NCBI GenBank assembly: GCA_964016885.1
Contig: OZ024740.1
Location: 221,712,001 to 221,776,000 of the forward strand
Direction of reading: 5' to 3'
Length of the DNA: 64,000 nt
From: Eledone cirrhosa
Taxonomy: Eukaryota
Made by a program: the position numbers and the translations under genes. Position 1 is the stretch's first letter, and every line of letters starts with the position of its first letter. Under the pieces are notes generated by a model. That model had not been told where the DNA came from. It saw only the letters and a program-made list of their open reading frames with translations, and did not search any database. Shown here in pieces: positions 11,574-57,702 of the stretch.

Positions 11574-11706
11574 CTTCCAAAGTGGAAAGTGTGGAGAGTA
11601 TATAGTCTCGATTGACGGGGTACACATTCAAGGGGACGCCCGGCCCGGTCGCCATGGGGCATGGCACCGTGGCTGGGGTGTGCTGTTCTATATGTTTGGG
11701 GTATTC

Positions 11707-11758
<52 letters not shown>

Positions 11759-11804
11759 TATCGAATACGGTTGGCTTCTTGCTACAATAATTTCTATAGT
11801 TTTC

Positions 11805-11877
<73 letters not shown>

Positions 11878-11879
11878 TT

Positions 11880-13301
11880 AATATTATACTTGAAGCTAGA
11901 CGCACAGTAGTGCACTTTGAAAATAGTTATTGGGTCCGCAGGGATAGACCCTCGGAATTCGACATTACGATGGGTTCTCATGATTCGGCGGAGGTCACGG
12001 ATTTGGTTGGGATCTATATAGCCCATAGACTCCAGAGCGAATTTACGGACCTCCACGGCGGAATATACCGCGACGATACACTTCTATTAGTCAAGAATAT
12101 GAACAAACAAAACCTAGAAAGGCGACGTAAAAACATTAGGAAACTTTTCTTAGAACTAGGGCTTAATATTACCTTTGAACACAATCTTAAGGTGGTCAAC
12201 TTCTTGGATGTCACCTTCAACCTTAATAACGGTAATATAGAGCCATTTCACAAACTTAATGAAAATCTTAAGTACGTTAATGTAAAATCGAACCATCCTC
12301 ATTCGATTATTAAATCTATCCCTAAAAATATATCCATAAGGATCTCCCGACTGTCGTCTAATTTGCAGACCTTCAACGAGCATGCTGAATATTATAATGA
12401 CGCACTTAGAAAAGCTGGTTACTGCGAGAAAATTGAATATCTAGACGATAACCACATAAGTACTATGAATAAAACACATCTAAGTCGAACTAGTATTGCA
12501 CCACACACACACATCAATAGGCATACTAATAGGTGCAAACCAGCAAATAGAGTCAGACGTAGAGAGTACATATGGTATAACCCCGTGTACAATTCTTCTA
12601 TTAGCACTAAGATTATCTCACAATTCTATACACTAATCAATAAACACTTTACAACTTCACATAAATACTATAAAATCTTTAACTCGCGCACCATTAGACT
12701 CTCATACTCCACTGCACCTAACATAGAACAACTAATTAGAAAACTCAACTCAGCAATACTGAATAAGTACATCCCTAATGACTCAGCGCACCAGCATAGC
12801 AACATACAACACACTAATACGCAACCACAACCCCACCAAACTATCCAGGATTCTACTGCAAAACATAAAAATAATTGTAACTGCACCAAACCAGGTACGT
12901 ACCCACTGAATAACCAGTGCCTAGCACGCAATATTGTCTACCGATGTACAATAAATTCCGGAACCAACAAATGGTATTACGTCGGATGTACCGCAACTTC
13001 TTTCAAGGCTCGCCTATACCAACATCGATCTTCGATCAGGTACGAGAAAATGCGCTCCGTAACAACCCTCGCCGATAAAGCCTGGCAGCTTCGGAGGAAC
13101 AATCAAGCGTTCTCCCTTGATTGGCAAATTATTGCAGCTGCGCCTGCATATCAGCAAAATCATCGATTCTGCAAGTTATGCAATTTAGAGATATACTGCA
13201 TTTTAACGTCGGTAAACAAACTTTTGAACAGCAAAATTGAACGTTCTCTATACTGTAACCATCGTTTGAAAACGACTTTTTCTTTTGTTAAATGCATATA
13301 A
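11880..13301 (+). CDS. 5'-truncated Penelope-like element ORF (RT + C-terminal GIY-YIG endonuclease; Nematis-like)
   Basis: FDITMGS, GGIYRDD, NFLDVTF, SNHP, WYNP, CNC..CL, VY..YVG, CKLC..E, LN..E..CNH; the tracked ORF start at 11661 is (TA)n read-through. Confidence 0.9.
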   Translation, partial: NIILEARRTVVHFENSYWVRRDRPSEFDITMGSHDSAEVTDLVGIYIAHRLQSEFTDLHGGIYRDDTLLLVKNMNKQNLERRRKNIRKLFLELGLNITFEHNLKVVNFLDVTFNLNNGNIEPFHKLNENLKYVNVKSNHPHSIIKSIPKNISIRISRLSSNLQTFNEHAEYYNDALRKAGYCEKIEYLDDNHISTMNKTHLSRTSIAPHTHINRHTNRCKPANRVRRREYIWYNPVYNSSISTKIISQFYTLINKHFTTSHKYYKIFNSRTIRLSYSTAPNIEQLIRKLNSAILNKYIPNDSAHQHSNIQHTNTQPQPHQTIQDSTAKHKNNCNCTKPGTYPLNNQCLARNIVYRCTINSGTNKWYYVGCTATSFKARLYQHRSSIRYEKMRSVTTLADKAWQLRRNNQAFSLDWQIIAAAPAYQQNHRFCKLCNLEIYCILTSVNKLLNSKIERSLYCNHRLKTTFSFVKCI

Positions 13302-14353: not shown

Positions 14354-14990
<637 letters not shown>

Positions 14991-15047: not shown

Positions 15048-15130
<83 letters not shown>

Positions 15131-15134
<4 letters not shown>

Positions 15135-15527
15135 ATAATAATAAAATTGAAGACTAAAATCCAAAGAGGGCTCGATAAGGAAAATATATATCAAATATAT
15201 AAGAACCGTAGAGCAAATATTTATTAAAATAACAGATTAAAGTTTAAGCAAAGAATCGCTGCTTTCACCCTTAACGGGATCTTCTGAAACTAACAAAGTC
15301 AATCTGTAAACGACACCGCTCCTATTAATGACGTATTATTCGTTTTTTCCCGTTCTTTGCCAGCGAACGTTACCACGAACCAAAGTATCGTCTTCCTGTC
15401 TTCCTCCGGTTGCAACGTTTTTTGAAATATCCAGTTCTGCGTTTACAGATTGACTTTGTTAGTTTCAGAAGATCCCGTTAAGGGTGAAAGCAGCGATTCT
15501 TTGCTTAAACTTTAATCTGTTATTTTA

Positions 15528-15535: not shown

Positions 15536-15596
<61 letters not shown>

Positions 15597-16522
15597 GACA
15601 GGGGGGAAGAAAAAAATGGCTTCACTTGTGCTTTCAATAAATTTATTTTCTTCACAAAATCCAAAAATAATTTTTTTTACGGATTAGAAAAAATTTTTTA
15701 AAAGAAATTTTTTTATATAAATTAAGTTGGTTGTTGGTTAGGTCTTAGGAGTTCTTGGTTAACGTAGGAGGTATTGTTTCGTTTTTAGAAAGACCTTTCA
15801 CGCTGAGGTGCGCTTGTCAAACTGATGTGTATGTGGTGTGTTGTTCTATATATGGGGATTTAACATGTTTGTGGTGTGGTTGGGGTTTTTTCTCCCCCTT
15901 TAATGAGTGTAGGGGTGTAGGTGTGTTGAAAAAATTTTAATAGCAGTAATGAGTTGAGACAGTGAGTAGGGTTGGATGGGGAGAAATGTAGCAAGTGCAA
16001 CCTGCCCCGGTCACTCTCGAAAAATTCCTTTATTCAGGGGAAAAAGCTTTTAGTATTCTTTTGTGTCGAGAATGGTCATAGGCAAACCGCACCTGCCAAG
16101 CTTGTAAACAATTATTTTTTCTGAAGAATTTTTCTACGTCCTTCCCAAAATTAGTCCTTTGTTCAACACACACATATGTGCGCATATACGTACATACACA
16201 CACGGGCATATGTAGGAATATATAGGCACACACCATCAATCACACACCCATGTACATATACATCCACATGCATACATAAAAACATATAAAGACACATACA
16301 AAAACACATATACACATATGTACTCATACCTCCACATGGGTATAGATATATATATACATACATACATATACATACATATACACGAATATGTACTCATACC
16401 TCCACATGGGTATAGATATATATATACATACATACATATATATATATATACATACATACATATACATACATATACACACATAAAGATACATAACTAAATA
16501 TACATATATATACACATACACA

Positions 16523-18200: not shown

Positions 18201-18297
<97 letters not shown>

Positions 18298-18370
18298 TTT
18301 GAATGGATACAGTTTAGTTGTGTGTAATATTTATATTACAACACTACGGAAAATACTGTATATATATATA

Positions 18371-20270
18371 TTCCGCCACCGTTCCAAACGGCACAACATC
18401 TCACGGGGCGAACTCCTCGCTCTCCGCTCCCTCCGTAGCCGAGATGACATCGTCATCAAACCGGCGGACAAGGGAGGCGCCGTGGTGGTATGGCGCGCGG
18501 ACCTCTACACGGCCAAAGCCCTCAGGCAGCTCTGTAACCCCCTCTTTTACCGCCCTCTACCCTCCGATCCCACCCCCCTCTACCAACAACAAGTTTCCTC
18601 CACCATCAAAGACCTTATCGCCTCCTCCCTCCTCCCCCACCGCTTCCCACCTCATCGTCCGCACCCCCGCACCCCCACCATCTACTTCCTCCCCAAACTC
18701 CACAAACCCGGCAACCCCGGCCGCCCCATCGTCTCCGCTTGCAACTGCCCCACCGAACTCATCTCCGCCTTTCTCGACTCCCTCCTCGCCCCCCTTGTCA
18801 CCACCCTCCCCTCCTACATCTCCGACACCAACCACGCCCTGCGCCTTTTCGACTCCTTCACCTACCTACCCGGCCCTCAGCCATTCCTCTTCACCCTAGA
18901 CATCAAGTCTCTCTATACCGTCATCCCCCACGCTGACAGCCTTCGCGCCCTCAAACACTACCTCGACCTTCGCCCCTCCCCCATTCCCTCCACCCCCACC
19001 CTCCTTCGCCTCGCCGAGCTGGTCCTGACCCTAAATTGTTTCTCCTTCTCGGGTGAGTTTTACCAACAGGTCACGGGGGTAGCCATGGGCACAAGAATGG
19101 GCCCGAACTATGCCAACCTTTTTGTTGGCCATGTTGAGGCCCAAATCTTTTCCCAGTACACCGGCCCCACGCCCGAACTGTACGGTCGTTACATTGACGA
19201 CTGTATCGGAGCCACGACCCTCACCCGAGTACAGCTCGACTCCTTTCTCTCCTTCTTCTGCTCCTTCCACCCCTCCCTCCACTTCACCACCTCTATCTCC
19301 ACCACCCACGTCCACTTCTTAGACATCTCCGTCGCCTTCGACCCCTCACACCACTCCCTCGTCACCTCCGCCTTCTTCAAACCCACCGACTCCCACTCTT
19401 ACCTCGACTTCACCTCTTCCCAACCCACCCACACTAAACTCTCCATTCCCTACTCCCAACTTCTCAGGATCCGCCGCCTCGGTAGCCGTGATGCTGACTT
19501 CGAGTCCCAGGCCCTTTCCCTAGTCAGCCATTTCATCCGCAGAGGTTACCCGCCCTCTCTCGTCTACACCGCTCTCACCCGCGCCCGTGCTATCTCCCGC
19601 TCCACCACCCTCACCCCACGCCACCGCACACCCACCCACCGTCTCCCCTTCCCCATCACCTACCACCCCTCCACCTTACCCCTCCACCGCCCCATCCGCC
19701 GCCTCTTCCGACGCCTCCAGTCCGACCCCTCCACCTCCCACATCTTCCCAACACCACCACTCCCCTCCTTCAAACGCGCACGCAATCTCCGCAACCTCCT
19801 CGTCCACAGCTCCCTACCCCCCAACCCACACTCCGGTCCCCCCCCCCCGGTTCCTTCCCCTGTTCTAGGCCCCGCTGCAACACCTGTCTCCACATCACCA
19901 ACACCACCACCTTCCAGGGTCCCAACGGCCACTCTCTCTCGGTCCGGCATGCCTTCCGCTGCACCTCCTCCAACCTAGTCTACGGACTTCGTTGCACGGA
20001 GTTCAGCGCGACTTATGTCGGACAGACGGGACGTCGCCTGGCGGACCGAGTCACGGAGCACCTCCGGGATATTCGTCTCGGGGGCAGTTCCGCCATCGCC
20101 CGCCACTTTGGTGGCCCTGGACACTCCGCACGCCATCTCACAGTCTGTGGCCTACTCCAGTGCCACGGAACACCCGCCCATCGCCTTACGGTCGAACAAC
20201 GCACTATCTTCATCTTACAGACCCACACTCCCCCCGGCCTGAACTCCCCACCCTTATTCCTTTAGCGTTC
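18371..20270 (+). pseudogene. 5'-truncated Neptune-type PLE ORF (RT, CxxxxCxxC linker, GIY-YIG); frameshift in poly-C at ~19845
   Basis: KPADKGG, PKLHK, RPIVS, DIKSLYT, GVAMGTRMGP, RYIDD, FLD; shifted frame CSRPRCNTC..NLVY..YVGQTGRRLADRVTEH..PGLN. Confidence 0.9.
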
Positions 20271-21734: not shown

Positions 21735-22210
<476 letters not shown>

Positions 22211-22805: not shown

Positions 22806-24765
22806 GCTCAAGTATTAATGTAAGGGAGATATATAGAGAGATATAGAGAGATATATAGAGAGAAAAATTTAAAAATAGCCAGACATATTCGAGGCGTAGA
22901 AAACCCTATGTTTTAATGTATTAGTATTTATAAAACTTACACTATATTGTAAATATCAGTATTCCTGAATGAAACAAGTATTCACAATGCGTGAAAATTC
23001 ATTATCTTATGTTTAGTTTTTTAAAAATTCATATGTCTATGTGAATCCAACTGATTCACTCCGCAAATTCAAAGTTACCGGAAAACATTCTCAATGTGGT
23101 ATAAAAATTTGAGCGTATTATTATTCTTGCGATTACTCTACAAGATTATCTATCAAGCAGAAATAGAGAGCAGATTTCAATATACTAATCGAAAATATAT
23201 ATTATATTATAAGCAGAGATAACAATAATAATGATAATAAGTAAAAATATATGAAAATATAAAAATATAGAATAGAAAACTAAAAAAGAATATTACGAAA
23301 GAATATTACATAATAAAAATATTGCATATTAAAAATACTACGTATTAAAAATATTACGTATTAAAACTTTACATATAAAAATATTAAAAATAAAAATTTA
23401 CATATAAAAATATTAAAAATAAAAATAAAATAAAATAAAAAATAAAAATATAAAAATATTATAGAATACTACAATACTAAAAGAATAAAAATAAAAATAA
23501 AAATAAAAATAAAAATAAAAATAAAAATAAAAATAAAAATAAAAATAAAAATAAAAATAAAAATAAAAATAAAAATAAAAATAAAAATAAAAATAAAAAT
23601 AAAAATAAAAATAAAAATAAAAATAAAAATAAAAATAAAAATAAAAATAAAAATAAAAATAAAAATAAAAATAAAAATAAAAATAAAAATAAAAATGAAA
23701 ATAAAAATAAACCACAAAGAACAACCCTTCAAGGTTAATTGACAATATATTGCCAAGTTCACTACAAGACAAAGCCAAAAATTATCTATCAAATCACATC
23801 TAGCAAGGAATATCGCAAAAAAGATTATGATGTCCAATAATGTCTACATATGTTCCTATATTTAATATATAAGTTTATCAAGTGTAAGGTTAGTTCAGAT
23901 AATTTGGAGCATCGGCTTTTAGGGTAGCTTAATTTTTCATGAGGAATGTTTAGATAAAAATAAAAATAAAAATAAAAATAAAAATAAAAATAAAAATAAA
24001 AATAAAAATAAAAATAAATAAAATAAAATAAACAATAAAAAGAGTAAAAAGAGGGAATCAAAGATTTAGGAATCAAAAGATTTATCGGCTAGTTCTCATA
24101 TAAATATAAATCAAACTAAATATACTACATTTTAAATTTAAATTTATATTTAAACGTTGAGTTTAATCTATGTTTGCAACAACTGAATAAATTTGTCCGT
24201 AGGTTAAGGGAATTTTTAGATTTTAGTATAAAGAATATCTCCTCTGCGCAGAGGTCACATGTCTCAGAGGATGAATTAAAAGGAATCCCTCTTGAGACTA
24301 TATTCCAAGCCGTCGAATATCTAACGTTATCTAGCTTAAGTTGCCAGAGTACACCTGATAGTGCCGTTGAAGATTTTTTATTTGGATCTGTGAAAGAATT
24401 CTTGTGGTTATTATAGCGAAGTTTAAATTCCGTCGATGTGGAACCGACGTAGTTAAAAGAATTAGAGTCAGTATTAACATTACAATTGTATACTATATTT
24501 TTAACTAAGCAGTTGTTATTTAACGGACATTTAGATCTATCTCTACAGTTACATTTGTTAACTTGTATATTATTTATGCTATTATCAGTAGGTTTTAAGT
24601 TCCTATTATTTATTCTATTAATATTTTGTGCTAAATTTTTGGTGGATGAGTAGGTTAATTTAATTGTATGCCTATTGAAGATTGAGTGGTACCTATGTGT
24701 TCTAGGGAAGCGATTATCAAGAGCTTTGAAAAATAATTTAGCGATGTGGGTTTTAATGTTTAAAT
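22211..24765 (-). mobile_element. 5'-truncated Nematis-like PLE: open endonuclease frame 24760->24126, ~1.9-kb AT-rich 3' UTR containing (TAAAAA)n, terminal HHR
   Basis: minus frame ..RYHSIFNRHTIKLTYS..KCNCRDRSKCPLNNNCL..IVY..YVGST..FKLRYNNH..TALS..W..CDLCAEE..LN..CKHR; absent from the ORF track. Confidence 0.85.
22344..22405 (-). ncRNA. Type I HHR
   Basis: minus: ttttgt-CTGATGA-aggcatagcatatt gtt aatatgatatcccc-GAAA-tatata-T-A-atgaaa. Confidence 0.75.
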
Positions 24766-24931
24766 ATATATATATCTATATGAAAAGAATCAAGATCCCG
24801 ACGGCTGAGCTCCCGCCGTTCAGCCGTCAGGGTCCTACTCGTTCCTATTACCCACTCTACTACGCTAATTATTGAGTACTCTGGTGCGTTATGGTCCACC
24901 TGGTTCCTTACCACACTTCCTTCGTTATTTA

Positions 24932-27609: not shown

Positions 27610-30595
27610 TGTAGTGGTATTTACTGGAGTAGATAACCCTGTGGCCAATTCACTAAATTGGTGACCCCGACGTGATAAGAAAATATTTAACGTATAGTGA
27701 GCATGAATGCAGGCATAAAACAGAAAAAAAAAATTGTCCCTCGTGTCTTTGGTTCAACCAAGGTTTCGTTTTTTTTAAGTCGTCATCTTACTTGCTCGGT
27801 GCTATATATATATTTTTTATTTAAGTTTTTGATGGTACTACCACGTGTGTGGTAGTTGAATTTAAAAAAAAAGAAACGACGAAGAAATTCTCGCTCAGCG
27901 TCTATGGTGTTAATCATGAGCAATTCTTCGTTACCAGCATTTCTGGTGATGCCAAATTGTGGTTTGCTCAACTGGACTCGTATTTTGCTGACCAGGGCGT
28001 TCAAGCGGCACAACAGAGATTACACGTGCTTACCAGCGGAATTCCTACTTCGTTGGCAACCTCAGTTAAAGACATAATTACAGATCCTCCACAAGGCACA
28101 TCTTACGAAACCCTAAAGGCAGAAGTGCTCAGACGGAACAGCCGCTCGTCTGAGAGTAGATTCCGTTCCTTGTTGGAAGACCTGGGTGACAGAACTCCGT
28201 TTCAATTTTTACGGCGTATCCGGGAACTGAGCGACTCAACAGCAGAGGACAATTCCTTCGTAAAACAGCTATTCTTCTCCCGTTTGCCAACAAATATGCA
28301 GACCATATTGGCGAATATAGTCGACAACAGTTCTTTGGAACAGATTGCGGACTCGGCGGACCGCATTATGGAATTTTCTCGAGAGCCTACTTCGGCAGAT
28401 TCAGTCGTCGCTTCTTCTGTTTTTAAAACCCAGCCTGCTTCACCTCGTGAAGACTCAATGTTGAGAATCATTGACGCGTTACTCGTCAAGTAGCTAAACT
28501 GTGTCGGGAGCGAACGCCATCTAGGTGGCGTTCACGAAGTCGGTCTCCTTCTCTTCATCGTCGCGCCAACTTCCCCGCCAACAACTCGTCTTTGTGTTGG
28601 TATCATGTGCGTTTTCGTGAAAAGGCGAAACATTGTACTCAGCCCTGTTCTTTCGAAACCCCGGAAAACAAAATTGGAGAGCCAGGCACGGCAGACCTCT
28701 CCCTCAATAATTCACCTTATCGTGCTTTCTTCATTAGAGACCGAGTCTCAAACAGGTCATTTATAGTGGACACAGGATCTAGTTGCAGTATTTGGCCGTT
28801 CCGGTTCAGCTCTACCAAGCCACATTTTTCCGGCATTTCTTTATATGCAGTGAACCAGTCTCCGATCAAAACCTATGGTCAAATAACTTTATTGTTGGAC
28901 TTAGCTTTGCGTCGAGATTTTAAATGGATTTTCGTCATTGCGGACCTACCTCATCCTATTCTCGGTGCCGATTTTTTACACCATTATTCACTGTTGGTAG
29001 ATGTCAGGAGACAGAAACTTGTGGATGGTACCACATCTTTATCTACGCCTGCTCGTAGGTCTACTGCGGCTGTTGTCAGTCCCTTGTTTTTATAGCTGCC
29101 TCTGGAAACCAGTTTCATTCACTTCTTGCCTCGTTTCCCGCGTTAACGGACATCTCATTTAAACCTTATCAGGTAGCCCACTCGACTCGACACTCTATTA
29201 CAACTGGCCCGCCTGTTTTTTCTCCTCCACGAAGGTTGGCTCTAGATAGACTAAAGAAAGCCAGAGATGAGTTCGAGCACATGCTTCAGCTCGGTCTTAT
29301 TCGACCTTCCACCAATCCATGGGCATCTCCGCTTCACTTGACTCGAAAGGGTGAAGCGGATTTTAGGCCGGTTGGAGATTATCGAAGACTTAATGCCATC
29401 ACTACACCTGATCGTTATCCTTTACCAAATTTACAGGATTTTTCATCCGTTCTGCATGGATATAAGATATTTTCTAAAATAGATCTGGTACGGGCTTACC
29501 ATCAAATACCCATGAATCCAGAAGACATACCAAAAACACCTGTGATCACCCCTTCTGGTTCGTTTGAATTTCTGTCCATGCTTTTTGGTATGCGGAATGC
29601 CTCTAGCACGTTCCAGCGTTTTATCGATGAAGTCACACGTGGATTGGATTTCGTGTGTGCTTACGGGGATGACCTCCTGATAGCCAGTGACACAGCTGAA
29701 CATCATCATCAACATCTATCCAAGTTATTTCAACGTCTTCAATCGTACCAAGTCAGAATCAACCCAGCTAAATGTGTGTTTGGTACAGCTTCACTGGAAT
29801 TCCTTGGACATCTTATAGATTCGGAAGGCATTCTACCTTTGCCATCTAAGGTGGAAGCGATTCAGCGTATCGCACCCCCGACCTCACTGAGACAGTTACG
29901 TCATTTCTTGGGATTAATCAACTTTTATCGTCGTTTCATTCCTAACTGTGCGGACAAGTTGTTTCCCTTGACACAGCTTTTAAAGGATGCGAAAAAGAAA
30001 GATGTACCCATTGCACTTTCTGCCGATAATATGCAATCGTTTGAATCCGTCAAGTCCGAAATAGCCGAAGTTTCTTTCCTCGCCCATCCTGTTGCAAACG
30101 CGAGGCTTTCTTTAACTGTTGATGCGTCCGATCATGCTGTTGGAGCAGTTTTGAACATACGATCAACCACCAGGTTCAACCACCAGGTTCAACCACTGGC
30201 ATTTTTCTCACGCCAACTTAAACCAGCGCAACAGAGATACATCACCTTTGACAGAGAACTTTTGGCGGTCTATCTTGCCGTGAAGCACTTCCACCATTTT
30301 TTGGAAGGGCGGGACTTCACGATATTCACGGATCATAAACCGCTAACATTCGCTCTCCAATCCAAGTCCGACAGGTACTCTCCGAGGGCACATAGGCATT
30401 TGGATCTCATCTCCCAGTACACCAGTGACATTCGTCATATAGCCGGAGCTGCCAACATACCCGCGGACGCGCTGTCTCGACTTTCTGTGTGTTCTCTTGC
30501 GTCTCCTGCACATATCGATTTGGTTGCCATGGCAACTGACCAACCTACTTTGGACATTTCATCTGACTAGTTCTCCTGCTGCAAATTGGAATATG
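27610..30595 (+). mobile_element. Defective Ty3/Gypsy LTR retrotransposon (gag, protease, RT, RNase H; integrase and 3' LTR missing)
   Basis: gag LWFAQLD..LGDRTP..LFFSRLP, CWYH..C..PC, VDTGS, ILGADFL, WASPLH, GDYRRLN, YGDD, TVDAS, DRELLA, TDHKPL, ADALSR; frameshift ~28490, stop 29093. Confidence 0.92.
27659..27676 (+). promoter_or_regulatory. LTR-retrotransposon primer-binding site for tRNA-Trp
   Basis: TGGTGACCCCGACGTGAT, complementary to the canonical animal tRNA-Trp 3' end. Confidence 0.85.
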
Positions 30596-32743: not shown

Positions 32744-33625
32744 AGAAAAGTTCCAGGACTGATGTCACAAAAGATTTATTTCAAACCCAAACTTCACACT
32801 AAGAGTTTTCTCCTTCAAAGTAATCCCCCTGGAGTATGTAACTGTAATCTTAGCTCTCTGCAGCGATCAAATTCTTCATAATTTTATATACATGTCCTCT
32901 GTTTCATGCCGTCAAACAATGAGCACAGAGCAACGAACAAACTTGAAAACTCCGTCAGAAGCACTGGGATTACTGCAGCAAGTGTATGGAGATGTGACGA
33001 TGTCACGCTCACGTGTTTTTGAGTAGTGCAAGAGGTTTAAAGAAGGACGCGAAGATGTGGAAGATGACCCCAGGAGCGGAAGGCCCTCAAAAACCAGGAC
33101 TGAGGTCAACGTTGGGCGCGTCAGGAAGATGGTGCGTAGCGATCGTCGGCTGACTGTTCGACTGATGGCAAATGAGCTGGGCATGAATCGGGACAGCATC
33201 TGGAAGATTCTCACTAAAGATTTGGACATGCGGAAGGTCTGCGCGAAGATGGTGCCAAAACTGCTGAACGATGAACAGAAGGGTCGACACATGCAAGTGT
33301 GCCAGGACATCCTCGAGCGTCTTGAAACCGAACCAGACTTGCTAGGGACATTCATCACCGGTGATGAGTCATGGATCTTCGAGTACAACCCGAAGGGGAC
33401 CCGTTTTGAAGACGTGGATGATATCAAAAAGGTCGTGACGACGGAACTGCGGAGGATCCCGGAAGAATCCTTCCAGGAGTGCATGCAAACGTGGCAGAAA
33501 AGGATGGAAAAGTGCATTAGACTCCAGGCGGATTACTTTGAAGGAGAAAACTCTTAGTGTGAAGTTTGGGTTTGAAATAAATCTTTTGTTTCATCAGTTC
33601 TGGAACTTTTCTGACCCACCTCGTA
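32744..33625 (+). mobile_element. Internally deleted mariner (Tc1/mariner) with ~90-bp TIRs; transposase remnant 32919-33557
   Basis: DDPRSGRP, KMVPKLL, ITGDESWI then directly KGTRFEDV..DYFE; TIR ends ..gacccacctcgTA. Confidence 0.9.
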
Positions 33626-35633: not shown

Positions 35634-36024
35634 GATTTTAACAAGGTGACAAAGATCGAATAATTATATCCATGTAGTAAATTCATCTCACCGTCAGTTT
35701 AGCTCAACATTATGATTGCCACTATGATTAAAATGAGAATGTATTACACAGCTAATGGCTGTGGATTCATAAATCACTTAAAATTAAATTAAAACTACTT
35801 GTCATTCATTCACTTTTCAAAACATTGGCGGTGTTTACAATCAAAGACGAAAAGCAGTTTATGGTTTCAGTTTTCTGTGATCTTACCTTTAGCCTATGGC
35901 GCCTTCGCTAATTAAAACTAAAACTAAAAACAACAGAAAATCAATCAGCTCAATGTTTAATTTCGGGCTGATTATTAAGTAGGTCACCATTTTCTAATAA
36001 AGGTATAAAAGACCTGTCACTTAC

Positions 36025-36987
36025 TTGTGAGAAATCCAAACATGACTTCTTTTTTGTTTGAAAGGCGTACTCAACAACAGCTGTGAGATCATCTTCAACC
36101 CTTTCAGTGCTTATATTTCCAACTGACATTCTATGACTTGCACCAATTTCTTCAAACATCAAATGTAAATCAGGGACAAAGGTATCTAGTTTCCCTATGA
36201 CATCATAGTTTATACCACACGTACCACAGAGATCGTGCATCATGCCAAAATGGTAATCTTTTTTCACGTTGATGTTATTAGAATGAATGACATAGCGCAA
36301 GAACTCTTCAAAAGTAACATCAAGCGGACATCTAATACTTGGCTTTTTAACTTTACCTTTTCTAAAAGTCTTAATAATATAAGCACACAGAGTTTTAAAC
36401 ATTTCTCGTGGCAAAAAAATCTTGTCAAGATAACCTGAAAAAAGACGAGCGTAAGGATCCCGGACAAAAAGTACTTTCTTGTATGATTTCAAGAGTTGGG
36501 CTTTTTTTCTGGGGAAAGTTGGGAGTATATCTATGGGCAATGTATGTACTTTGGTTGGAGCTATATCATAGGGATTGGAAACATTCGGATACTTTCCATT
36601 AAGTATCAACATAAGACGTTTAAAGTATGTGCAACCAACTTTTGGTATATAACAGAACACCATTTTGTGTTGGTGATTTACAAGCATCACATGATTGGTA
36701 GCAGTGTAATGGTGACCATGTCGCCGGCATTGGGCTTTTAGTATTTCTTTCCGTTTGTAGTTTTGTTTCCTTGTTGCGTTCAACGAAAATAGCTGTGGCT
36801 TTTTTTCCATTAAATATCGAGAGAATTTAAGACTCTGTGTTGATAATTGTGTTGATAATTGTGTTGGTGATTCTTGTTTTAGTTTGATGGGAATTATTTG
36901 AAGTGGTATGCTGGTAAGTGTTTCTCTGAGTTTCGGTTGATATGTGTTTCTTAATCCTGTTGGTATTATCACTGATGAAGAAATGTG
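36025..36987 (-). CDS. Carbohydrate sulfotransferase (Sulfotransfer_2; CHST8-14/HNK-1ST-like), main exon
   Basis: 5'-PSB FCYIPKVGCT, 3'-PB FVRDPYARLFSGY, TFEEF, C..C.INYDVIGKLDT; donor CAA|gtaagt at 36025; likely acceptor caacag| at 36987. Confidence 0.88.
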
Positions 36988-37056
36988 CTGTTGTGTAGAA
37001 TCAAGAGACAAGAACAAAATAATTTATCAACACACAGATCACAGCGTACTTTTTCC

Positions 37057-37999: not shown

Positions 38000-38055
<56 letters not shown>

Positions 38056-38063
<8 letters not shown>

Positions 38064-38237
38064 GGTATATATAGTGTATTTTGCAATTGCTGAAAATTAA
38101 AGTAAGTGAGTCTGTCACTACTCTAAAACAGTAGCATACGGTCTTCGAAATGCTTTTAATTAAGCATACAGTGTATTGCAAAATACACTGTATATACACT
38201 CATATATATATAGCTTTTTTAGAGCACCAATTCTAAT
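38056..38237 (+). mobile_element. Truncated copy of the U3-A8 retrozyme-like family with a short inverted 5' piece
   Basis: gtcactactctaaaac..gtcttcgaaatgcttttaattaagcatacagtgtattgcaaaatacac. Confidence 0.8.
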
Positions 38238-38269
38238 ATTATATATATATATATATATACACATCCTAC

Positions 38270-57001: not shown

Positions 57002-57200
57002 TAGTTCCACAACAGTTAGTTCACCATTGCCGAGAACAATTGTTTCACCTTATTCGGATCATCAGCTCGGTTTAAATGTACAACCTCATTTAAACCGAGC
57101 TGATGATCCGAATACGGTAAAACAATTGTTCTCAGTAATGGTGAACTAACTGTTGTGGAACTACTACCAAACTCGTCCCTTGGACTGAGTGCTCTACTAC
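57002..57200. mobile_element. Palindromic terminus with two opposed minimal HHRs
   Basis: minus 57030-57070: ccgag-CTGATGA-tcc gaataa ggt-GAAA-caattg-T-T-ctcgg; plus-strand copy has GAAA->AAAA. Confidence 0.8.
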
Positions 57201-57287: not shown

Positions 57288-57649
57288 TTAAACATGCAGT
57301 ATATTGCTAAATATACTATACATACAAATATACTATACATTCATGTATATATCAGTATTTCAGAGCACCAATACTAATACCTAAATTTTGATGGACCGGC
57401 AACCACTCTGTTTAATCAGTTCTTAAATATTACTGGAATGCTATAAGAATCCAGCCTCTTTAGTTCTAGGGAGAAGCGAAGGGGTGAGTAGTCTTGATAA
57501 ACGCTAATGAGCGTGAAACAGGACTGTCGATTACTCTCCTTTGCTTCTGCCGAGAATAAGTAAGTCACTACTTTAAAACTCATAGAGAATGGTCTTCAAA
57601 ATGTTTTAAATTAAACATACAGTATATTGCCAAATATACCATACATACA

Positions 57650-57654
<5 letters not shown>
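57288..57654 (+). mobile_element. Retrozyme-like monomer (period 323 bp) with terminal redundancy, in (TA)n
   Basis: ttaaacat.cagtatattgc.aaatatac at 57288 and 57611; non-coding; one HHR. Confidence 0.8.
57469..57551 (+). ncRNA. Intact hammerhead ribozyme, U3-A8 core variant
   Basis: gagtagtc-TTGATAA-acgct aatg agcgt-GAAA-cag ga ctg-T-C-gattactc; stem I extends agaagcgaagggg/tcctttgcttct. Confidence 0.82.

Positions 57655-57702
<48 letters not shown>

What the first reader, a model, noticed from the sequence alone, without database searches (positions are those of the whole stretch)
57288..57654. Small retrozyme-like (putative circular RNA) family built on a U3-A8 variant hammerhead
Seen: a non-coding 323-bp unit with terminal redundancy holds a complete type I HHR whose core is UUGAUAA rather than CUGANGA. 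A diverged relative (14638-14722, minus) has the same core but different, still paired, stems I and II. Two downstream hairpins also covary (atgctt/aagcat vs atgttt/aaacat; gtgtatt/aatacac vs gtatatt/aatatac). The copies at 14486-14990, 38056-38237 and here start and end at different points of one circular order. Known: C3-G8 is a tertiary Watson-Crick pair, U3-A8 is a tolerated but uncommon natural variant, and non-LTR retrozymes are small HHR elements that form circRNAs and are thought to use PLE enzymes. Inference: this is a selected, self-cleaving circRNA retroelement that CUGANGA-based searches would miss. Its internal TA-rich patch could anneal to (TA)n targets.
Basis: partly seen in the sequence, partly recalled or inferred. 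Interest (0 to 1): 0.85.

Follow-up and report, generated by a model that had tools for sequence, protein, structure and literature searches.

The report
Retrozyme superfamily bearing Penelope insertion signature
This is one aged copy of a large family of ~310-base non-coding repeats that carry a hammerhead ribozyme fold with a rare swapped core pair, and their insertion pattern suggests they are likely copied from small RNA circles by Penelope-type retrotransposon enzymes.

Summary
A type I hammerhead with a U3-A8 core lies at 57486-57536 inside a 323-bp unit.

It belongs to a genome-wide superfamily of 308-323-nt non-coding units. Pattern counts behind a shared motif: 1,216 U3-A8, 16,830 C3-G8 (mostly one young subfamily in long arrays), only 7 C3-A8 and 8 U3-G8. 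The 3-8 pair switched at least twice, and all ribozyme helices covary.

The 5' ends vary, but 3' ends sit at two fixed sites about 33 nt apart in (TA)n. In head-to-head insertions one arm usually uses each site (10 of 10 young arrays; 37 of 47 older pairs). This is the Penelope-like-element (PLE) 'tail' signature, and autonomous PLEs in this genome show it too. Units within an array are near-identical and share private variants across both arms, as rolling-circle reverse transcription predicts.

No coding partner was identified. Cleavage and circular RNA are untested. U3-A8 is already reported in schistosome PLE ribozymes.

Verdict: a new variant of non-LTR retrozyme whose main value is mechanistic evidence on PLE-driven mobilisation.

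The parts
57288..57653 (+). Subfamily-A insertion, single arm: one 323-bp unit plus ~40 bp of the next (partial tandem), ending at 3' site 1
   Evidence: (L001)
57345..57378 (+). Internal TA patch plus ~30-nt 'tail' segment between 3' site 1 and 3' site 2
57394..57409 (+). 16-nt motif shared by subfamilies A, B, D and G (one substitution here); candidate enzyme-binding element (inferred)
57465..57557 (+). Extended helix I enclosing the ribozyme
   Evidence: helix 1
57486..57536 (+). Type I hammerhead: helix I 57486-57493/57529-57536, core U3-A9 57494-57500, helix II 57501-57514, GAAA 57515-57518, near-palindromic helix III 57518-57527; predicted cleavage after C 57528
57601..57618 (+). Covarying hairpin 1 upstream of site 1
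   Evidence: (helix 7)
57622..57639 (+). Covarying hairpin 2 directly upstream of the AC-rich site 1
   Evidence: (helix 8)
57654..57700 (+). (TA)n target flank
14486..14770 (-). Subfamily-B arm with U3-A8 ribozyme (core starts 14697, 16.2 mutated), ending at site 2 in (TA)n
   Evidence: (L031)
14775..14987 (+). Inverted subfamily-B arm of the same insertion, running ~20 nt past site 2
38053..38240 (.). Head-to-head pair of short B-type arms without the ribozyme core; minus arm ends at site 1, plus arm at site 2

Best explanation
The element is one aged copy of a superfamily of 308-323-nt non-coding hammerhead repeats that are likely spread as small RNA circles by a Penelope-like reverse transcriptase-endonuclease acting in trans. 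Shown: unit structure, covarying ribozyme, two fixed 3' ends in (TA)n, variable 5' ends, inverted arms and homogeneous arrays. Inferred cycle: tandem copies are transcribed. The hammerheads, probably as dimers through the palindromic helix III, cut out monomers, and a host RtcB-type ligase closes them. The PLE protein cuts both strands of a (TA)n tract and primes cDNA at two internal sites about 130-165 nt downstream of the cleavage site, usually one site per strand. It copies round the circle for 0.1 to about 19 turns, and the two cDNAs are joined head-to-head. U3-A8 is a compensatory replacement of the C3-G8 pair that has switched at least twice in the superfamily.
For: Covariation: 93.8% of 1,718 cells paired, 23 of 44 pairs with double changes, 0 of 500 shuffles as high, slid controls 31-47%. 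The 3-8 pair: U3-A8 1,216; C3-G8 158 outside D plus ~16,700 in D; mixed 7 and 8. Tree needs 2 changes, AU p = 0.03 against one U3-A8 clade. Ends: 185 of 229 arms at two sites, 149 of those 185 followed by TA; 66 of 129 loci have an inverted partner arm. One arm per site in 10 of 10 two-armed D arrays and 37 of 47 A/B/G pairs (p = 5e-5). Same architecture in autonomous RT+GIY-YIG elements L235, L248 and L152. D units differ by 0.25 positions within arrays against 3.75 between, and both arms share private variants. No pile-up of 5' ends at the cleavage site (5 of 185; about 7 expected). Longest ATG frame 30-55 aa, GC 0.33-0.34. A run of the same organism label holds D contigs with clustered A>G changes absent from a DNA-like run, as expected for edited RNA. 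Literature: PMC7229834, PMC8557442, PMC11167929, 10.64898/2026.07.22.740005.
Against: No cleavage assay and no direct circle: contigs cannot show RNA ends, and the library type of that run is not on record. No autonomous partner with matching terminal sequence was found. In array L253 two units seven apart share two variants and one variant recurs in both arms, which a single monomer circle does not explain. 10 of 47 pairs use the same site twice, 8 of them from G-type loci, and 20 of 67 pairs could not be assigned. The active fold is predicted 3-7 kcal/mol above an alternative fold. Family A mostly has a 10.1-11.1 mismatch. In the Anolis PLE, hammerhead cleavage was not needed for insertion in vitro (PMC11167929). 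In Xenopus 8 of 9 retrozyme dimers did not cleave (10.64898/2026.07.22.740005). Loci were found through ribozyme-side queries, so arm lengths are biased upward.
Confidence: 0.72

Rival explanations
1. Same PLE-dependent non-autonomous element, but the template is an uncleaved linear multimeric transcript of an existing array; circles are by-products or absent.
For: Repeated variants inside array L253. PLE insertion in vitro used unprocessed RNA (PMC11167929). Head-to-tail arrays exist to supply such transcripts.
Against: The ribozyme is kept through many compensatory changes and two core switches. Arrays of 12+7 identical units carry six private differences (L254). A/B/G sources are mostly under three units, yet 103 of 185 arms exceed one unit (biased sample).
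Confidence: 0.18
2. The units are only pseudo-LTR fragments of a coding PLE not yet seen.
For: All insertion features are those of PLEs. Xenopus retrozymes match PLE termini (10.64898/2026.07.22.740005).
Against: Units run head-to-tail into themselves for up to 19 copies. 18 of 18 loci picked by the tail motif alone had no coding PLE joined to the unit. A profile of the unit found, in 50 PLE loci, only one separate neighbouring insertion (L204) and weak hits.
Confidence: 0.07
3. A DNA-level satellite or MITE-like repeat amplified by recombination, with a coincidental ribozyme look.
For: Long tandem arrays and inverted arms exist.
Against: Fixed 3' and variable 5' ends, strand-specific core conservation, tertiary-pair covariation, dispersed array-private variants.
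Confidence: 0.03

Closest known systems
Metazoan non-LTR retrozymes (Cervera & de la Pena 2020, PMC7229834; coral, mussel, axolotl)
   Same: 150-450-bp low-GC non-coding tandem units with a type I hammerhead; U.U at the base of helix II in one axolotl family as in subfamily D; PLEs proposed as helpers.
   Different: U3-A8 core in subfamilies A and B; fixed dual 3' ends and inverted head-to-head arms (the words 'inverted' and 'truncat' do not occur in that paper's main text); circles were shown there, not here.
Penelope-like elements, 'tail' and inverted 5' copies (PMC8557442; PMC11167929)
   Same: Partial tandems, 5' truncation, inverted copy, 30-40-bp tail at one end, microsatellite bias, two RT start sites next to an AC-rich stem-loop.
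   Different: No ORF; 310-nt unit; one-site-per-arm coupling is quantified here, whereas in vitro the two start sites showed no strand difference.
Schistosoma mansoni Cercyon-related minimal hammerheads with U3-A8 (PMC4209133)
   Same: Same core covariation in a PLE context, ~1,300 hits, palindromic helix III.
   Different: Those are minimal motifs, mostly single; here the ribozyme has a 3-5-bp helix III and long helix I inside a repeat unit, with C3-G8 sister subfamilies.
Xenopus retrozymes as non-autonomous PLE derivatives (bioRxiv 10.64898/2026.07.22.740005)
   Same: Conclusion that animal retrozymes depend on PLEs.
   Different: Their link is pLTR sequence similarity; here no pLTR similarity was found and the link is the insertion signature.

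Membership tests
Non-LTR retrozyme | Type I hammerhead in each unit | tested here: met
Non-LTR retrozyme | Unit 150-450 bp, GC below 45-50% | tested here: met
   308-323 nt, GC 0.33-0.34
Non-LTR retrozyme | Tandem dimers to multimers | tested here: met
   D arrays up to 19+3 units; A/B/G: 14 of 185 arms over two units
Non-LTR retrozyme | No protein coding capacity | tested here: met
   longest ATG frame 30-55 aa in three circularised monomers
Non-LTR retrozyme | No LTR-type PBS or PPT | not tested
   not searched
Non-LTR retrozyme | Self-cleavage in vitro | not testable with these tools
   needs transcription assay
Non-LTR retrozyme | Accumulates as circular RNA | tested here: inconclusive
   only contigs available; probable RNA run holds B- and D-type sequence
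Non-LTR retrozyme | Target-site duplication over 4 bp when present | tested here: inconclusive
   flanks are (TA)n, duplication cannot be read
Penelope-like element (autonomous) | RT plus GIY-YIG ORF | tested here: not met
Penelope-like element (insertion signature) | 30-40-bp tail / two 3' ends | tested here: met
   sites 33-35 nt apart
Penelope-like element (insertion signature) | 5' truncation, partial tandem, inverted 5' copy, microsatellite bias | tested here: met
PLE pLTR derivative | Sequence similarity to the pLTR of a coding PLE | tested here: not met
   50 PLE loci, of 10,597 GIY-YIG candidates, so a small sample
Canonical hammerhead consensus | C3-G8 pair | tested here: not met
   U3-A8 in A and B; C3-G8 in D and G
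Canonical hammerhead consensus | Paired 10.1-11.1 | tested here: inconclusive
   paired in this copy, B and G; mismatched in 36 of 38 A copies and in D

The most novel reading that the evidence does not exclude
A dimeric PLE enzyme cuts both strands of (TA)n and its two subunits start reverse transcription at two offset sites on the same ~310-nt RNA circle, each rolling round it. This would explain the one-sided PLE 'tail', the inverted 5' copy and retrozyme arrays in a single mechanism, with a very recently active subfamily (D, ~16,700 units) as a ready substrate.
Probability: 0.35. Interest if true: 0.78.

Novelty: new variant of a known kind. Interest (0 to 1): 0.55.

Why it matters
How animal retrozymes are copied into genomes, and why PLE insertions have a tail at one end and an inverted copy at the other, are open questions (PMC8557442; 10.64898/2026.07.22.740005). 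This superfamily gives a minimal non-coding template with a countable rule (one start site per arm), a very young subfamily, and co-resident intact PLE ORFs to test as helpers. It also gives a natural series in which the hammerhead 3-8 tertiary pair flips at least twice with almost no mixed intermediates. Over a thousand such ribozymes here are invisible to CUGANGA descriptors and, at least for this copy, to Rfam.

Tried and rejected
Rfam: no hammerhead among the 150 listed of 206 window hits or in the 241-bp rescan.

Autonomous partner: 30 GIY-YIG loci plus 20 long-frame loci were scanned with a unit profile. Tail regions of three PLE families were compared with A, B and D; the best was 7 of 300 shuffles among 9 comparisons and out of register, so rejected. 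PLE fragments beside retrozyme copies have their own termini.

Idea that U3-A8 was chosen to weaken a competing fold: it favours the native pair by over 1 kcal/mol in 3 of 6 subfamily copies, goes against it in 2 and is neutral in 1, so inconclusive.

Idea that the core type sets array length: D (C3-G8) has long arrays but G (C3-G8) does not, so not supported.

Other organisms: runs X4 and X6 each hold one 340-nt contig nearly identical to D. This could be carry-over or a relative and was not used as evidence. X7 and X10 share mainly the tail region at high depth, a lead only.

My first regex classes mislabelled some B2/B4 copies as 'Gu'; the core labels used for counting were unaffected.

Earlier-findings look-ups returned nothing.

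Literature searches found no paper describing this family or the one-site-per-arm rule. The library lacks most subscription papers, Repbase and Dfam could not be checked, Lunse et al. 2017 (PMC5785218) was not held, and no supplements were read.

Full report
Setting. The window comes from a 3.0-Gb animal assembly. An intact PLE ORF from it has mollusc relatives as its best named hits. The karyotype, TA-rich DNA and heavy A-to-G changes suggest an octopod cephalopod; that is recalled knowledge and no call names the organism.

Observation. Direct reading and a both-strand scan confirm a type I hammerhead at 57486-57536 with U3 and A8, and a second at 14697 (-). Both regions fold far better than shuffles (z -6.5 and -7.3). 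Rfam does not detect the first. The unit repeats after 323 bp. This copy is aged: family A copies are about 92% identical to their consensus. It is unusual in pairing 10.1-11.1, which is C.A or A.A in 36 of 38 family-A ribozymes. The 14-kb copy has lost the 16.2 pair. The copies at 14.5 kb and 38 kb are head-to-head pairs of inverted arms.

The family. Searches of the own genome gave 2,925 and 2,196 candidates for the two window copies; a 16-nt tail motif occurs 24,605 times. From 202 loci I extracted 175 distinct segments, falling into subfamilies A, B1-B4 and G, a very young subfamily D (99.5% identity), and single further types. Behind a shared 16-nt motif the core is U3-A8 in 1,216 places and C3-G8 in 16,830, of which 158 remain when the D-type base after the motif is excluded. 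It is C3-A8 in 7 and U3-G8 in 8. The U3-A8 pattern lacked the extra base used in the last three, and one search used a wider gap. All counts need an exact motif, so they are lower bounds and under-count old A copies. Copies are not independent, so I built a tree from 55 of the 175 segments with positions 3, 7 and 8 masked. It runs D (C-G), A (U-A), G (C-G), B (U-A): two changes, and one U3-A8 clade is rejected at AU p = 0.03. Caveats: I named the group after seeing a first tree, bootstraps had not settled, recombination is not excluded, and a further C3-G8 type seen in L204/L276 was left out.

Selection on structure. On 40 natural copies my 44-pair structure is 93.8% paired, with double changes at 23 pairs. 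These include 4 of 5 in helix I, 4 of 4 in helix II, 3 of 5 in helix III, the 3-8 pair (28 U-A, 11 C-G, 1 other) and both downstream hairpins. No shuffle of 500 reached this, and slid controls fall to 31-47%. The structure was drawn from these sequences, and cells count inherited changes repeatedly. Helix III stays palindromic or nearly so through several different sequences, the feature linked to dimeric cleavage (PMC4209133, PMC3088659).

Insertion anatomy. Of 229 arms in 137 A/B/G loci, 107 end at site 1 (after an AC-rich stretch, at the internal TA patch), 78 at site 2 about 33-35 nt further on, and 44 elsewhere. 149 of the 185 are followed by TA. The 5' ends are spread round the unit and only 5 of 185 lie within 6 nt of the cleavage site. 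155 cross the cleavage site and 103 exceed one unit, though the sample was found through ribozyme-side queries. 66 of 129 loci have an inverted partner arm. Among 67 head-to-head pairs, 47 had both ends assignable: 37 use one site each and 10 the same site (p = 5e-5 against 0.5; 8 of the 10 are G-type loci). I fetched 12 D arrays chosen from the hit lists. Ten are two-armed and all ten use one site per arm. Units differ by 0.25 positions within and 3.75 between arrays, and both arms share array-private variants. One array (L253) has recurrent variants that a single monomer template does not explain. Autonomous RT+GIY-YIG elements here show the same two ends 38-40 nt apart, one per arm, in L235, L248 and L152.

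Fit to PLE biology. Craig et al. (PMC8557442; passages seen) list partial tandems, inverted 5' copies, a 30-40-bp tail often at one end only, and microsatellite bias. Frangieh et al. (PMC11167929; parts 1-2 of 4 read) show that a PLE protein cuts and extends both strands of AT-rich DNA, is predicted to be a dimer, and starts at two internal sites that bound the tail. A linear cleaved monomer primed at sites 1 or 2 could give only 130-170-nt inserts without the ribozyme core, so the template must be circular or uncleaved and multimeric. Array homogeneity and ribozyme conservation favour a circle but do not prove it.

Partner. None was identified. Fifty PLE loci showed no terminal similarity, and 18 of 18 loci picked by the tail motif alone were plain units. 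Only 50 of 10,597 endonuclease candidates were examined. Several coding PLE families here carry U3-A8 minimal hammerheads themselves, so the variant recurs in this genome.

Expression. Run X5 (same organism label, 88 Mb of contigs, library type not on record) holds D contigs, with loose ends whose differences from the reference are all A>G. Two A>G sites it shows are absent in run X1. This points to edited double-stranded RNA, as inverted arrays would form. X5 also holds B-type contigs, one at depth 398 across the ribozyme with five substitutions and a gap. X5 and X1 are different samples, and contigs cannot show circles or ends.

Comparison and novelty. The element meets the testable criteria of non-LTR retrozymes (PMC7229834; parts 3-4 of 6 and passages read); cleavage and circles remain untested. 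U3-A8 is known: about 1,300 S. mansoni hits (PMC4209133; parts 1-2 of 4 read) and several natural cases, with activity shown earlier in vitro (PMC3088659; passages). A 2026 preprint links Xenopus retrozymes to PLE termini but leaves the mechanism open (10.64898/2026.07.22.740005; parts 1-3 of 5 read). The giant squid genome paper only counts 235 hammerheads (PMC6962438; passage). My searches found no description of this family or of the one-site-per-arm rule, within a library lacking most subscription papers; repeat databases and supplements were not seen.

Verdict. Real feature, new variant of a known kind. The core variant alone is of modest interest; the insertion signature and the very young sister subfamily make retrozyme mobilisation and the PLE tail directly testable. 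Interest 0.55.

Noticed in passing
G000 genome-wide; e.g. L253-L264, L070:1-1347: Subfamily D: ~16,700 near-identical C3-G8 units in V-shaped head-to-head arrays of up to ~22 units, apparently a very recent burst; the best substrate for experiments.
   Followed up: yes
window 57002-57163: Near-perfect 160-bp palindrome just upstream of the finding: a head-to-head pair of another PLE-type terminus with a minimal C3-G8 hammerhead; a similar end follows a coding PLE fragment in L021 and L069. One arm appears to carry an extra ~35-nt tail.
   Followed up: partly
window 21958-22160: Another head-to-head hammerhead element (CUGAAGA core, U.U at helix II base, long palindromic helix III) with two different 3' ends in (TA)n; relatives in L242, L250, L032, L053, L056 share helix II sequence with subfamily D.
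   Followed up: partly
L233, L234, L242, L244; L203, L227: Coding PLE families whose terminal minimal hammerheads also have U3-A8.
   Followed up: partly
L235:1275-4562: Intact ~1,000-aa RT+GIY-YIG PLE ORF, 1,035 candidate termini, top copies 96-99% identical; a candidate helper, not linked by sequence.
   Followed up: partly
window 11616-13301 (+), 18206-20265 (+), 24125-24775 (-): PLE-like ORF remnants; a canonical minimal hammerhead follows one at about 20998 (+).
   Followed up: partly
window 15130-15300 and 15588-15780: Two more TA-inserted termini: a hammerhead-like repeat often found beside the retrozymes, and an end of the L235-type PLE.
   Followed up: no
run X5 on L099:1100-2200: Dense A>G changes in D sequence, consistent with hyper-editing of double-stranded RNA from inverted arrays.
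   Followed up: partly
runs X4, X6, X7, X10: Runs labelled as other organisms hold a single 340-nt D-like contig (X4, X6) or the tail region at high depth (X7, X10); carry-over or related families.
   Followed up: no
window 27825-30570 (+), 33027-33557 (-), 35950-37023 (-): ORFs resembling, from recall, a Gypsy-type gag-pol remnant, a mariner transposase and a carbohydrate sulfotransferase exon.
   Followed up: no
e.g. L004:1190-1400, L148:140-320: A very abundant tRNA-like SINE-type repeat in most fetched loci (identity recalled, not tested).
   Followed up: no
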